Shown here: one piece after another, positions 38,528 through 43,650 of the stretch
How the letters are laid out: every line of letters starts with the position of its first letter
Numbering within the stretch: position 1 is the stretch's first letter
Origin: the human T2T-CHM13v2.0 reference genome, Homo sapiens
Reading direction: 5' to 3' (one strand)
Length of the DNA: 64,000 bases
Assembly: GCF_009914755.1 (NCBI RefSeq)
Contig: NC_060942.1
Position numbers and translations under genes: made by a program
Notes under the pieces: generated by a model
What the model saw: the letters and a program-made list of their open reading frames with translations, nothing else
Databases searched by the model: none
Told to the model about the DNA's origin: nothing

Positions 38528-41111
38528 CACTTTAATGTAAGAAAGCAGTGCCTCCATAAGCTTCCTCCAGGTGGACTGAGTCATGCAAATTGCTTTGTAT
38601 TTGCATTGCTTGCTTTTCCTCCCATTCCCATTTATCAGCTGTCACTGGCCACAGTGGGAGCTCTGAGATTTACAGTGGCTTTTTAAAAGCTATCATTTCA
38701 TATACTCATGGTAAAAAATATTTCAAAAATTACTGTGAGGGCTAAGGACCCCATTTGGCACGAGAACTTGACTAAAACATTATACCAAGCACATTATCAG
38801 AAGCTAAAAGCTAATGCTGAGATCTGCTTCATGCTGTTGTTTTATGAAGGATTTCTTTTTTCGCATCTTTTTTTCCTTGAAAGGATTCAATATCAGTTCA
38901 GGAGGCTGACTTCAGGCTTTAAGGCTCTGCCATAAACTGGTATATAAACCTACCCATGAAAGTCTTAAAGTTTAGTCAAAGCCTTAATACAGAAACCATT
39001 CGGAAAGGGTGCAGGGTAGAAGGGGCCACATGTAGATACTTTGCCTTTGTACTTTTTCTAATGATAAACGGTCAATTAGCTAGCATAGGAATAGCTTGCC
39101 AGATGAATCAAATTAATAGCTAGCAGATTTTTTTTTTACTAACAGCAGCAAACAACCCAGCTTCAGCAGTTGTCTTCCTGTTCCTTCCCTTTTGTTTTAA
39201 ACTGAATAATCTTACCCTTCAAATAAAATATTTGATTGGCTACAAGCAACTGACTAACAGCTAGCCAACACTGGAGGAAGCAAGAAACTAGAAACTAAGA
39301 AAATAAGGCTGAAACACACACAGCCAAGAGCATTTACTCATCCAACAAACATTTATTGAGCACCATAGGCTTGAATGTAATAAGCATCCAATAAAATATC
39401 TGGGGAAAGTATGACCAAGTATGACCCTCTGGTAGTTAGACATTCAGACTGTGTTTTTCTTTCACACATTAGCTTTTGCTCACTATTAACAATGCTGTAA
39501 GTTTTGACAAAAAGAAATATTTCCGTTGCAAGCAAACTGAAGTAATGTGTCTTTTTATAGCAATATTTGCTTGCCAGGGTTTCCAAACTAGACTAATGGA
39601 GTTCGATCATGGAAATTAATGGTTAAAGATATGTTCTACAAGGCAAAGCAGTTGGAATGGTTTTAGTCAATTACTGAAGGCAATTACATTTTATATTGTA
39701 AAGGGACTCTCTTATGGCCAACCTGACTGCCTGTATTTAAGAGTTATTATCTTTGTTATTTGTATGATAAAATATTTAACAGAATAAGGATTAGAGGGTT
39801 AAGAAAAGTGAGGAGTGGAGACTGGTTTGGCAATTTCAAGAATCGGAAAGAGAAGACGAGTATCTTATGCTTTTATTTCCCTGTTCAAATGCCAGCAGCC
39901 ACACACTCAAATTGCCTGAGTCATGATCATGCAAAATTAACCTTGCCTATTTCTGGGATGAAAAATAATTTGAAAGTATGCTTGTAATATAAGATTTTTA
40001 TTTAAACATATGTGTAAATATTGATATTCACTTGAAAACAAACTATAAAATGTTTAAATGAAAAAAACTATCAGATTTCTAAGCAATAAAAGTGAGATAT
40101 TAGTGCTCTTAATACAAAAAACGTGGGAATAGGTCAGAAGTAGTATAATAACTCTAGTTTTTGTCAAGGGTTTGGCCTATAATTCCAGAAAATAAAAACT
40201 CTTGTTTTCATGGTAGTATGAAGGAAACGTTTTCTGAAGACAGAGCTAAGATTTAGACTGATACACAATTTCTGCAATGGCTTTGCATCTGATAAAAATT
40301 AGAATGCACTGGAATATCCTAAAACATTGCCAGAGACTTCTTGAAGGAAGATGTTGATTTATATGTTGTATAGATATAATAACTGATTGAAATACTCTCA
40401 CTGATGTTAACTTGCAGCAAAGTTAAAGGCTTGACATGCCTTTTCAATTACAATTTACTTAATCTCAGTATTTCATGTTTCTCTGGTTGGTTGGTGATGA
40501 TTACAGAGTGAAAAATATGTATTGACTAAGGTAATTACTTAAGTCAAATATTTATAAAATGTATTCAACGGAAGTTACGTTTCACTATACTGTGGGTTTA
40601 CTTTTTGTACTGTGTGCTTCTTAGAGCAATACGTTTTACCACCCTGTATACCCCTCAGTGTTATAGATATAAAAATTTAAGTATCCAGATAAGGGGATAG
40701 ATGGTTGATAGTAGGCAGGCATATAATATAGAGATGAATAAATAGATAAAGTTGTTAGTTATACTTTGATAATGGTCACGTATTTTATTCTTCCTTCGTT
40801 CGGTTGTGATAGTCAAAACAAGTAGAGAGCAAGGAGCCTCAGTAGTTTTTTTACTAGGTGCTAGTCCCTAATGGAATCAGGGTAGAATAAAACTATTGAA
40901 AATAAGGAAGAAATAAAAAGAGAAATTCAGAACCTCAGCACCCTTCCACGAACACGTACGTTTTTCACAAAACTACATTTAGAAGCCTAGTTATCCACTG
41001 AGTGCGGTGGCTCATCCCTGTAATCCCAGCACTTTGAGAGTTTGATTTTTTTTTCCCCCAGAGCAGAAGCGAGAGTTTATTAAAAAGCTTTAGAACAGCA
41101 AGGGAAAGAAA

Positions 41112-41217
41112 AGAAGGAAAGTTCACCTTGGGAGAGAGCAAAGCAGGCGCCTTGAGAAACCAAGAGAAGGAAAGTTCACCTTGGGAGAAAGCAAAGCAGG
41201 CGCCCTGAGAAACCAAG
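41112..41217. repeat. 53-bp tandem duplication in the LTR R region
   Basis: agaaggaaagttcaccttgggaga...gagaaaccaag present twice with 2 mismatches. Confidence 0.95.
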
Positions 41218-41292
41218 TGCGCAGCTTGACCTCTTGAATTCGGGTTTTATACTTCGGGTTGGCTTACTTCCGGGATCTTGTATTACTTCTCC

Positions 41293-42094
41293 CTACTCCT
41301 GAAATCTTATTGGGAAGCTGCTGATCAGTTTCAGGTGTTTTCTATCTAGTAGGAGCCTGCCTTTCCCGGGGGCCGGCTGTGACCAATTATTACTACTCCT
41401 GAAATCTTATTGGGAAGCTGCTGATCAGTTTCAGGTGTTTTCTGTCTAGTAGGAGCCTGCCTTTCCCGGGGGCCGGTTGTGACCAATTATTACTACTCCT
41501 GAAATCTTACTGGGAAGCTGCTGATCAGTTTCAGGTGTTTTCTATCTAGTAGGAGCCTGCCTTTCCCGGGGGCTGGCTGTGACCAATTATTACTACTCCT
41601 GAAATCTTACTGGGAAGCTGCTGATCAGTTTCAGGTGTTTTCTGTCTAGTAGGAGCCTGCCTTTCCCGGGGGCCGGTTGTGACCAATTATTACTACTCCT
41701 GAAATCTTACTGGGAAGCTGCTGATCAGTTTCAGGTGTTTTCTATCTAGTAGGAGCCTGCCTTTCCCGGGGGCTGGCTGTGACCAATTATTACTACTCCT
41801 GAAATCTTACTGGGAAGCTGCTGATCAGTTTCAGGTGTTTTCTGTCTAGTAGGAGCCTGCCTTTCCCGGGGGCCGGTTGTGACCAATTATTACTACTCCT
41901 GAAATCTTACTGGGAAGCTGCTGATCAGTTTCAGGTGTTTTCTATCTATTAAGAGCCTGCCTTTCCCTGGGGCCGGCTGCGACCAATTATTACTACTCCT
42001 GAAATCTTACTGGGAAGCTGCTGATCAGTTTCAGGTGTTTTCTATCTATTAAGAGGCTGCCTTTCCCTGGGGCCGGCTGCGACCAATTATTACT
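41293..42094. repeat. Minisatellite, 8 x 100 bp, inside the LTR U3
   Basis: gaaatctta recurs at 41301, 41401, ... 42001; units differ by only a few substitutions. Confidence 0.99.
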
Positions 42095-42892
42095 TTACCA
42101 AAACAGTTAACAACCGCCTGACCATCAGCTGATTGTTGCCCAACACTGCTGGTGTGTGTTGGGAGTGGGGCTTCTCTCTCTTGCCCTGCTCATACATGAC
42201 TAGCTACCTGCTGTAACATTTCTCACCTCAAGAGTCCAGGACCTCAAATCTTTGGATGAAGGTCTGTCATCCAAAATGGATGACTTCTGTTTTCTGTAAC
42301 TGCTTCCTGCTGACAGAGGGGTGGTCGTGGTCGGGTGGATCTTGGCTCCTTGCTACCCGTCAGGGCTGAGTTGGCTGCATCAGTTGGTGAAAGTGGTATC
42401 CAGCCAGGTCCAAGGGAGACAGGGGCAGGATTTCACCACTGTCTTGTCCCACTGATGGGAAGTGCAGAGGTCCTCTCTAGAAGGGTGACTCTTGAATATT
42501 GAGAGGATGGTTTTCCTCACTGAGGATTGTCTGGAGCTCAATGGCCACTAGGAAGGTATCTGAGTCATGTGGACCAAATATGTTAGCAGTGGCAGATATC
42601 CGAGTTACGCAAGTTACCGGCAGCGAATCCATATGGGTCCACAGCAACCTCAGTCCTTGTCTCTTCAGAAGAAAGAATTCTACTGAGGGGCATAAGGCAG
42701 AAGGAGAGACCTAGGCAAGTTGCAAAGCAGAAGTGAGCATGTATTAAAAAGCTTTAGAACAGTAAGGAAAGGAAGAAAAGAAAAGAAGGAAAGTTCAACT
42801 TGGAAGAGGGCCAAGCCGGCAACTTGGCAGAAGGATTGCTTGAGCCCAGGAGTTAAGACCAGTCTGGGCAATATAGTGAGACTCCATCTCTG

Positions 42893-42922
42893 CATACATA
42901 CATACATACATACATACATACA

Positions 42923-42952
<30 letters not shown>
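42893..42952. repeat. (CATA)15 microsatellite in the Alu middle linker
   Basis: Directly visible. Confidence 0.97.
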
Positions 42953-42953
<1 letters not shown>

Positions 42954-43650
42954 TGCAGGGTATGATGGCACACGCCTGTAGTCCTAGCTACTCTGGAGGT
43001 TGAGATGGGAGGGTCACTGAGCCTGGGAAGTTGAGGCTGCAGTGAGCCATGATCACACCACTGCACTGTAGCCTGGGCTAAACAGTAAGACCCTGTCTTA
43101 AAAAAATATTTTTTTAAAGTCTAGTTATTTTGAATCTCGCTTTTTCAGCTGTGCTCCTTGAAGTGGCATTACCTCTTCTTTACGAAAAGGAGAATATCGT
43201 CAGCCAACTGTCATCACTGATTTTGCCAAATCAAAGTAAAAGTCTGGCAATGTGGGAATATATCATTGTCAAGTAAACTGCAGGTAGCACTGAGGAATAC
43301 AAATATATCTTTAGAATTTTCAAATATTTTTTAGGTGAAGCTGAGATCAATATGAATTAAATTTAGCAGACTACATTCAGAAAACAAAAGCAGAAAACTT
43401 TCATATATTTAAAGTTTAAGAGATTAAGATTCATTAATAAGCAGCACATGTACTCAAAGTTTTTTAAATGCATGGCGTGGTAACAAATTCATTCTATAGT
43501 AAGACACCTATAACTTCAGTTGTCTGTCAGCCTCAAAGCTTTGACTTAGCTCAGTTTTGCTGTATTCATTTCTCTCATCCATTGCTAGATACACACGTAA
43601 AGATTGACATAGCAGGACAGAGATCCTGCATCTACCTTCATCTTTGGAGA

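What the first reader, a model, noticed from the sequence alone, without database searches (positions are those of the whole stretch)
41041..42825. Spliced, polyadenylated retrocopy of an ERV-FRD (syncytin-2 family) RNA inserted inside an Alu
Seen: on the minus strand the insert has RNA rather than provirus layout. It starts inside R, at a point equivalent to about 45 nt downstream of the TATAAAA in the other LTR copy. It then runs through U5 (ending ...GCTAACA) and a PBS, TGGTCCACATGACTCAGAT. Only 362 bp of internal sequence follow, then the PPT and a complete U3-R with AATAAA 21 nt before an A-tract. There is no U3 at the 5' end and no U5 at the 3' end. It splits a single AluJ whose own TSDs survive on both sides; about 5 nt of Alu are lost and the insert has no TSD. 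Knowledge (from memory): the PBS resembles the tRNA-His site TGGTGCCGTGACTCGGAT, the LTR is MER50/MER83-like, and L1-made processed ERV copies are well described for HERV-W. Inference: this is an ERV mRNA mobilised in trans, possibly by an endonuclease-independent route. RepeatMasker would probably show it only as separate fragments.
Basis: partly seen in the sequence, partly recalled or inferred. Interest (0 to 1): 0.85.

Follow-up and report, generated by a model that had tools for sequence, protein, structure and literature searches.

The report
Spliced ERV-FRD RNA retrocopy inside an Alu
This is an old DNA copy of a spliced, polyadenylated RNA from the endogenous retrovirus family that gave us syncytin-2, pasted into an Alu; sister copies elsewhere in the genome show that this family, like HERV-W, was copied repeatedly by the LINE-1 machinery.

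Summary
On the minus strand, 42825-41046 reads R (first 14 nt missing)-U5-PBS-11 nt | last 22 env codons-3'UTR-PPT-U3-R-A9. It sits in one Alu that has its own TSD.

The junction at 42546|42545 is a real splice. Proviral copies carry ...CCTAGTG|GTAAGAG at the donor and ...CCTTCAG|GCCATC at the acceptor.

The element is 74% identical over 552 nt to the 3' end of the provirus carrying the 538-aa syncytin-2 ORF (C6:10.97 Mb). Its LTR start and PPT match that provirus. Its env tail matches syncytin-2 at 16 of 22 residues.

Three other human loci carry the same junction. All three start at the same R start, 25 nt after the TATAAAA, and have A-rich tails and 12-14-nt TSDs, the LINE-1 hallmarks.

Genome-wide, the R end is followed by poly(A) at 43 places and by U5 at 790.

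Corrections: no Alu bases are lost, because the insert ends at 41046. This copy has no TSD, so the endonuclease-independent route stays open. The eight 100-bp units and a 53-bp duplication arose locally and later.

Verdict: a new member of a known kind. I found no published description for ERV-FRD.

The parts
40995..41045 (+). Head part of the host Alu (sense on the + strand), up to the insertion point
   Evidence: sequence; the halves abut with 0 (3 of 5), -1 or +1 nt missing against other Alus of the window.
42826..43108 (+). Remainder of the same Alu. It holds a (CATA)15 microsatellite at 42893-42952 and a short A tail. The Alu TSD is at 40982-40994 / 43116-43128.
41046..42825 (-). Whole insert: retrocopy of a spliced, polyadenylated ERV-FRD-family RNA (1780 nt as it stands)
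42723..42825 (-). 5' R. It lacks the first 14 nt of R and has a degenerate poly(A) signal, AATACA.
   Evidence: alignment with six loci that start at GCACTTGG; 79-80% identity to the 3' R.
42581..42722 (-). U5, ending ...GCTAACA
   Evidence: four of six complete LTRs elsewhere align up to this point (within 1 nt); two alignments stop 9-18 nt short.
42558..42576 (-). Primer-binding-site-like sequence (19 nt, decayed). The tRNA-His assignment is recalled, not tested.
   Evidence: conserved in sister copies and proviral leaders
42546..42557 (-). Last 12 nt of exon 1 (ACCTTCCTAGTG). The donor is used after 42546.
   Evidence: L008, L024, L044 and L046 continue with GTAAGAG, and L034 with GTGAGAG.
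42477..42545 (-). Start of exon 2: the last 22 env codons plus the stop (AIELQTILSEENHPLNIQESPF*)
   Evidence: acceptor ...CCTTCAG|GCCAT; the syncytin-2 ORF ends AIKLQTNLSAGRHPRNIQESPF*; 16 of 22 residues are identical.
42219..42476 (-). Env 3' untranslated stretch, with the PPT GAGGTGAGAAA at 42229-42219
41221..42218 (-). U3 (TGTTACAG...), with TATAAAA at 41251-41245
41293..42094 (-). Eight tandem 100-bp units inside U3 (96% matches). The unit is single in the other copies examined.
41059..41220 (-). 3' R. It holds a local 53-bp tandem duplication (41112-41217) and AATAAA at 41081-41076, and ends ...CTGCTCTG.
41046..41058 (-). GGGG followed by A9: remnant of the poly(A) tail at the family's poly(A) site

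Best explanation
An ERV-FRD-family provirus was transcribed from its 5' LTR. The RNA was spliced from the leader donor, 11 nt after the PBS, to an acceptor 22 codons before the env stop. It was polyadenylated at the R/U5 border of the 3' LTR.

This RNA of about 1 kb was reverse-transcribed and inserted into an Alu in what is now a DOK6 intron, antisense to the gene. The insertion was made by a non-retroviral route, most likely LINE-1 acting in trans. It happened tens of millions of years ago.

Later, a 100-bp U3 unit expanded to eight copies and 53 bp of R duplicated.

Shown: the RNA-type ends, the splice, the family, and L1 hallmarks in the sister copies. Inferred: L1 as the agent for this particular copy, and the date.
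For: Ends:
- Seven other loci (L002, L003, L004, L008, L018, L019, L044), and L034, begin at the same GCACTTGG. That point is 25 nt after the TATAAAA, and unrelated DNA lies upstream.
- Poly(A) follows CTGCTCTG in L006, L007 and L016 (L019: CTGCTCTAAAAC...) and in the six further loci fetched (L073: CTGCTCTT).
- Genome-wide there are 43 R-end+A11 hits and 790 R-end+U5 hits, at up to 3 mismatches. The reversed-pattern controls gave 0.

Splice:
- The window reads CCTAGTG|GCCATTGAGC.
- Five loci that continue past the donor read GTAAGAG or GTGAGAG.
- Seven loci and the ERVFRD-1 provirus read ...YCAG|GCC before the acceptor.
- The same acceptor is joined to a second donor, ATGG|GTAATG, in L010, L011 and L020.

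Family:
- q580-1131 aligns at 74% to the 3' end of the provirus carrying the 538-aa ORF at C6:10.97 Mb. The first aligned base lies 22 codons before the stop.
- The LTR start is the same at both of that provirus's LTRs.
- That provirus nests inside the family tree.

L1:
- L002 has A20 and a 12-nt TSD.
- L003 has an (AAAC)n tail and a TSD of about 13 nt.
- L004 has an A-rich tail and the TSD AAATGAT(C)TGGG.
- In the tree, the window groups with five other R-poly(A) copies (SH-like support 0.93).
Against: - This copy has no TSD.
- Its target (CTGCC|TCAAAC) is unlike the L1 TT|AAAA preference.
- Its tail is only A9 and is preceded by GGGG, which no other copy shows.
- R 5' and R 3' differ by 20%. 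That fits great age, but it rests on about 100 nt.
- A source provirus with a DNA deletion running exactly from donor to acceptor would give the same RNA.
- No primate orthologue could be examined.
Confidence: 0.88

Rival explanations
1. Same spliced RNA, but inserted by an endonuclease-independent route. Either L1 reverse transcriptase primed at a pre-existing break, or a cDNA was captured during double-strand-break repair. This contrasts with classical endonuclease-initiated target-primed reverse transcription.
For: There is no TSD and the target is not L1-like. Only C is shared at the 5' joint. Capture of reverse-transcribed spliced mRNA at breaks is reported in mouse zygotes (PMC4516963, abstract seen in the listing).
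Against: The copy keeps a poly(A) tail and loses no target bases. By recall, endonuclease-independent L1 insertions often lack tails and delete target DNA. All three sister copies are classical, with TSDs. A blunt classical insertion cannot be told apart from this route.
Confidence: 0.3
2. A provirus, or an internally deleted provirus, integrated in the retroviral way. It later lost the U3 of its 5' LTR and the U5 of its 3' LTR by unrelated deletions.
For: Old ERVs are often truncated. The two R copies are only about 80% identical.
Against: Both truncations would have to fall at the cap and poly(A) sites used by many other copies. The internal deletion would have to fall exactly at GT...AG. 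An A9 tract would have to be added. The Alu would have to stay intact without the 4-6-bp TSD of integrase. Three other loci with different flanks repeat the same layout.
Confidence: 0.03
3. A DNA-level duplicate (segmental duplication or gene conversion) of one of the other three spliced copies, not an independent RNA insertion.
For: Four loci share one junction.
Against: The flanks are unrelated in all four. Here the flanks are the two halves of one Alu. The copies differ by K2P 0.16-0.26. The 5' ends differ: this copy is 14 nt shorter.
Confidence: 0.02

Closest known systems
HERV-W processed pseudogenes made by LINE-1 (Pavlicek et al. 2002. That paper is not held, so it is known to me by recall and from citing passages in PMC6995185 and PMC3590776. 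Also Grandi et al., PMC5016936 listing, and the PMC5537654 abstract.)
   Same: R-U5...U3-R-poly(A) layout with no 5' U3 and no 3' U5. L1-type TSDs in sister copies. Some HERV-W copies also lack an intron (pre-gag), as read in PMC6995185 passages.
   Different: A different ERV group (ERV-FRD). Here nearly the whole genome is spliced out, from the leader donor to an acceptor in the env tail. This copy has no TSD.
HERV-K(HML-2) 2q32.1 locus: a retrotransposed rec-like spliced mRNA (PMC3590776, passages read)
   Same: A spliced subgenomic ERV RNA copied by L1. It has a short A tract (8 nt there, 9 here). [quoted passage not shown]
   Different: A betaretrovirus-like group. Reported as a single locus with a 13-nt TSD. 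The splice pattern is that of a known accessory mRNA. The ERV-FRD acceptor used here is not described in the papers I searched.
Retrotransposed spliced HERV-H copies (Goodchild et al. 1995; seen only as a citation in PMC3590776)
   Same: Genomic copies of spliced ERV RNA in a related gamma-like group with a His-type PBS (recalled).
   Different: I could not read the paper. The route and layout of those copies were not compared here.
ERVFRD-1 provirus (syncytin-2 locus), C6:10.97 Mb in this assembly
   Same: Same family: 74% identity over 552 nt, the same PPT|LTR start, the same acceptor sequence, and an env tail identical at 16 of 22 residues.
   Different: That locus is a provirus with both LTRs and an intact 538-aa env. 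The window copy is promoterless at its 5' end and holds only the last 22 env codons.

Membership tests
LINE-1-made processed pseudogene of an ERV transcript | 5' end at or after the cap site (R start), with no U3 upstream | tested here: met
   it starts 14 nt after the R start shared by seven other loci. Alu DNA lies upstream.
LINE-1-made processed pseudogene of an ERV transcript | 3' end at the R poly(A) site, no U5, poly(A) tail | tested here: met
   AATAAA, then 21 nt, then A9. The same CTGCTCTG|A(n) site is used in other copies. 790 LTRs continue into U5.
LINE-1-made processed pseudogene of an ERV transcript | Target-site duplication of about 7-20 bp | tested here: not met
   the Alu halves abut with 0 nt duplicated or lost. 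The feature is met in sister copies L002, L003 and L004.
LINE-1-made processed pseudogene of an ERV transcript | Insertion at a TT|AAAA-like site | tested here: not met
   the target is CTGCC|TCAAAC. Sister TSDs start AAAT or AAAA in L003, L004 and L019.
LINE-1-made processed pseudogene of an ERV transcript | Intron loss at GT...AG | tested here: met
ERV-FRD group (family of the syncytin-2 provirus) | Sequence homology to the ERVFRD-1 provirus across env end, 3'UTR, PPT and LTR | tested here: met
   74% over 552 nt, the same boundaries, and 16 of 22 env-tail residues; the provirus nests within the family tree.
ERV-FRD group (family of the syncytin-2 provirus) | Repbase/Dfam LTR and internal names (MER50, LTR58 and the like) | not testable with these tools
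   No RepeatMasker or Dfam is available. A PMC4724089 table lists HERVFRD as ERV3-1-i/LTR58 MER50.
ERV-FRD group (family of the syncytin-2 provirus) | PBS complementary to the 3' end of tRNA-His | not tested
   The resemblance is recalled only. No tRNA-His gene was fetched.
Endonuclease-independent L1 insertion | No TSD and an atypical target. By recall, often also a target deletion and a missing tail. | tested here: inconclusive
   No TSD and an atypical target. But there is no deletion and an A9 tail is present.
Provirus or solo LTR made by retroviral integration | Complete LTR(s) TG...CA flanked by a 4-6-bp TSD | tested here: not met
   neither LTR copy is complete. Complete LTRs of the family are about 545 bp.

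The most novel reading that the evidence does not exclude
ERV-FRD, the family that gave syncytin-2, was a recurrent LINE-1 substrate in the way HERV-W was. The human genome keeps:
- four copies of one spliced isoform;
- copies of a leader-only RNA of about 370 nt;
- other isoforms;
- dozens of R-poly(A) ends, including 'R-only' copies of about 125 nt.

Together these fossil cDNAs record the cap site, the poly(A) site and a splice acceptor inside the env cytoplasmic-tail codons of the ancestral virus. That acceptor implies a small subgenomic RNA. I did not find this RNA described in the papers I searched.
Probability: 0.5. Interest if true: 0.55.

Novelty: new member of a known kind. Interest (0 to 1): 0.45.

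Why it matters
A 2017 review abstract calls HERV-W the sole HERV group specifically mobilised by LINE-1 (PMC5537654). These copies show the same process acting on the syncytin-2 family.

Retrocopies are fossil cDNAs. They fix the transcription start, the poly(A) site and the splice sites of a virus that has been extinct for tens of millions of years. They also flag family members that are promoterless at their 5' end, which matters when ERV-FRD or MER50 reads are assigned in expression studies.

Locally, the copy puts a complete U3-TATA-R with an eightfold 100-bp array into a DOK6 intron. Whether it acts as a promoter or enhancer there is untested.

Tried and rejected
1. For a while I read the 327 nt after the junction as part of a long LTR. 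In 14 loci homology to the window begins exactly there. I rejected this for two reasons. The sequences upstream of that point are homologous to each other and encode an env TM tail. Complete LTRs and the ERVFRD-1 LTRs start 327 nt further on.
2. LTR-PBS-LTR, 2-LTR-circle or plus-strand strong-stop origins were dropped for the same reason.
3. A blastn search of the window for other copies of the element found none outside it.
4. No ORF of interest was found. The only ATG ORF of 70 aa or more runs through the microsatellite and Alu.
Pavlicek 2002 is not held.
6. I did not attempt a tRNA-His test of the PBS. A 15-nt pattern would mostly hit ERV PBS sites.
Only 6 of the 39 R-poly(A) hits not already matched to earlier loci were fetched. 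The other 33 are unexamined.
8. Literature searches for ERV-FRD or MER50 processed pseudogenes, or for this acceptor, returned no such description. Subscription journals and supplements were not searched.
Full report
WHAT IS THERE. I read the window on the minus strand. An Alu, sense on the + strand, is interrupted between 42826 and 41045 by a 1780-nt insert (42825 to 41046).

The Alu has its own target-site duplication: ATAACTAGACTTT at 43128-43116 and ATAACTAGGCTTC at 40994-40982.

I aligned the two Alu halves separately to five other Alus of the window. They abut with 0 nt missing in three comparisons, -1 in one and +1 in one. That holds if TCAAA (41045-41041) is counted as Alu, as those alignments place it. 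So the insertion neither duplicated nor removed target bases.

ANATOMY OF THE INSERT, 5' to 3':
- R without its first 14 nt (42825-42723)
- U5 ending GCTAACA (to 42581)
- TATT
- a decayed PBS (42576-42558)
- 12 nt ending CCTAGTG (to 42546)
- GCCATTGAG... (from 42545): 22 codons and a stop (AIELQTILSEENHPLNIQESPF*, to 42477)
- 247 nt of untranslated sequence
- the PPT GAGGTGAGAAA (42229-42219)
- U3 from TGTTACAG (42218), with TATAAAA at 41251-41245
- R from GCACTTGG (41220), with AATAAA at 41081-41076, ending CTGCTCTG (41059)
- GGGG and A9 (41054-41046)

Tandem Repeats Finder gives 8.0 copies of a 100-bp unit (41293-42094, 96% matches). It also gives a 2.0-copy 53-bp duplication in the 3' R (41112-41217, 96%). 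The two R copies are 79-80% identical over about 100 nt. No other copy of the element lies in the window.

A FALSE TRAIL, THEN THE SPLICE. The human assembly that holds the window can be searched. With the first 606 nt of the insert as query, 40 of 1725 candidates were scored. Many loci matched only from the point after CCTAGTG onwards. That made me suspect an LTR border there. It is not one.

In the 14 such loci, the sequences upstream of that point are homologous to each other. In L009 and L012-L017 they end in ...TTTGTCTCCTCTCACCTTCAG|GCCATCAAGC. That is a polypyrimidine tract and an AG inside an env transmembrane-subunit tail (LLFGPCLLNLITRFVSSHLQ|AIKLQ).

On the other side, loci that continue past CCTAGTG read GTAAGAG (L008, L024, L044, L046) or GTGAGAG (L034). 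L024 and L046 run on into leader/gag sequence homologous to the ERVFRD-1 locus.

The window's CCTAGTG|GCCATTGAGC is therefore exactly donor exon plus acceptor exon.

The same acceptor is joined to a second donor (ATGG|GTAATG, 285 nt upstream) in L010, L011 and L020. This speaks for a genuine acceptor.

FAMILY. A Pfam TLV_coat search of the genome found an uninterrupted 540-codon open frame at C6:10.97 Mb. Its 538-aa ORF ends ...LLFGPCLLNLITQFVSSRLQAIKLQTNLSAGRHPRNIQESPF*. That this is syncytin-2 follows from its place, its length and my recall of the protein.

The window element from the acceptor onward aligns to that provirus at 74% over 552 nt, and the first aligned base lies 22 codons before the stop. 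The provirus has the same acceptor sequence. It has the same PPT|TGTT... LTR start at its 3' LTR, and its 5' LTR starts at the same point.

Six complete LTRs elsewhere (L063-L068) are about 545 bp (L063: 545 bp). Five start at the U3 start given above (L066 aligns from 11 nt further in). Four reach the U5 end (two alignments stop 9-18 nt short). Each has one 100-bp unit.

In a FastTree tree of the 552-nt segment, the ERVFRD-1 provirus nests among the other loci. So this is the ERV-FRD family itself. I could not test the Repbase name. A table in PMC4724089 lists HERVFRD as 'ERV3-1-i/LTR58 MER50'. The tRNA-His reading of the PBS is recalled and was not tested.

SISTER COPIES AND THE AGENT. I looked for the junction in two ways. 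A junction-centred query scored 40 of 61 candidates. An exhaustive 23-nt pattern search gave 16 hits at up to 3 mismatches. Three of those are family members; the 13 hits at 3 mismatches include 10 copies of one unrelated sequence and were not examined.

Only three other loci carry the same junction: C7:132.674 Mb (L002), C6:152.091 Mb (L003) and C14:70.153 Mb (L004; it has 4 mismatches to the pattern and was found by BLAST).

All three begin at GCACTTGG, 25 nt after the TATAAAA, with unrelated DNA upstream.
- L002 ends in A20 with a 12-nt TSD (AATAGGGTAACT / AATAGGGGAACT).
- L003 ends early, in the env 3'UTR, with an (AAAC)n tail and a TSD of about 13 nt.
- L004 ends at the R poly(A) site with an A-rich tail and the TSD AAATGAT(C)TGGG, beyond a later Alu.

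These are LINE-1 hallmarks. The window copy lacks a TSD and its target (CTGCC|TCAAAC) is not L1-like. For this copy, L1 is therefore inferred from its sisters. An endonuclease-independent entry remains possible but is not shown.

THE ENDS ARE R BORDERS.
- L008, L018, L019, L034 and L044 also start at GCACTTGG.
- L006, L007 and L016 carry poly(A) directly after CTGCTCTG. L019 reads CTGCTCTAAAAC and then an A-rich tail.
- Genome-wide, the R end followed by eleven A's (up to 3 mismatches) occurs 43 times. The R end followed by U5 occurs 790 times. The reversed-pattern controls gave 0.
- So the A-tract is not part of the LTR.
- Four of the 43 lie at loci already known.
- I fetched six more. They are not long copies. 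Five contain only about 105-135 nt, from at or near the R start to the poly(A) site. One has 44 nt. Three of the six have clear TSDs. This is an independent definition of R.
- The other 33 hits are unexamined.

AGE AND LATER CHANGES. K2P distances between the four spliced copies are 0.16-0.26. The two R copies of the window differ by about 20%. At a rate of about 2.2e-9 per site per year (general knowledge), both suggest roughly 40-60 million years, with wide error. CpG sites were not removed.

The 100-bp units and the 53-bp duplicate are 94-97% alike. The unit is single in all 15 other loci that hold it. So these expansions are local and much younger than the insertion.

In the tree the window groups with L002, L006, L007, L016 and L019, which are all of the other R-poly(A) copies in the set except L003 and L004. 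The SH-like support is 0.93. This hints at one productive source lineage.

LITERATURE.
- Searches for HERV-FRD or MER50 with 'processed pseudogene', and for retrotransposed FRD copies, returned no description of such copies.
- A search for syncytin-2 with splice sites returned nothing on this acceptor (listing only).
- PMC3590776 (passages) reports one rec-like spliced HML-2 retrocopy. It cites earlier HERV-H (Goodchild 1995) and HERV-W (Pavlicek 2002) cases.
- PMC6995185 (passages) describes HERV-W processed pseudogenes that lack a pre-gag intron.
- PMC4724089 (passages) states that processed pseudogenes were not told apart from proviruses in its census.
- Pavlicek 2002 is not held. No supplements were read.

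VERDICT. The kind is known, and ERV-FRD appears to be a new group for it. The family-wide set of retrocopies is the more interesting result.

Noticed in passing
L072, L074, L075, L076, L077 (C6:34.50 Mb, C10:98.13 Mb, C11:37.62 Mb, C12:102.28 Mb, C19:13.91 Mb); L073 shorter: 'R-only' mini-copies. About 105-135 nt run from at or near the R start (L072, L074, L077; L076 starts about 22 nt upstream; L075 about 15 nt inside R) to CTGCTCTG plus poly(A), with nothing else of the ERV. L074, L076 and L077 have clear TSDs. They look like L1 copies of RNAs that start and are polyadenylated within one LTR.
   Followed up: partly
L008 (C3:113.19 Mb), L034 (C11:6.42 Mb), L044 (C23:7.34 Mb): Three retrocopies of a short leader-only RNA: R-U5-PBS, the unspliced donor, then 75-85 nt, then poly(A). 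TSDs are clear in L034 and L044 and probable in L008. All end at about the same CT-rich point, and I saw no AATAAA nearby.
   Followed up: partly
L010, L011, L020 versus L013, L016, L017: A 285-nt stretch inside env, bounded by ATGG|GTAATG and the same CAG|GCC acceptor, is absent in three loci. Those loci nevertheless have U5-bearing (proviral-type) 3' LTRs. They are either a spliced variant spread by the retroviral route or a deletion subfamily.
   Followed up: partly
L018 (C4:148.18 Mb); L019 (C12:19.57 Mb) and L007 (C10:78.51 Mb): Further isoforms. In L018 the donor is joined to a point about 120 nt further into the leader. L019, which has poly(A) and a TSD, and L007 share about 150-200 nt of other internal sequence just before the exon-2 start.
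   Followed up: no
window 41293-42094: The eight 100-bp U3 units alternate between two variants. Shifts of 200 bp match better than shifts of 100 or 300 bp. This suggests expansion in 200-bp steps and a possible copy-number polymorphism.
   Followed up: no
window 42893-42952: A perfect (CATA)15 microsatellite occupies the middle linker of the host Alu.
   Followed up: no
window 41046-42823: None of the 20 longest masked stretches listed by the hub falls inside the 1.78-kb insert, although the adjoining Alu part (42824-43126) is listed. The ERV copy seems largely unmasked in NCBI's file.
   Followed up: no
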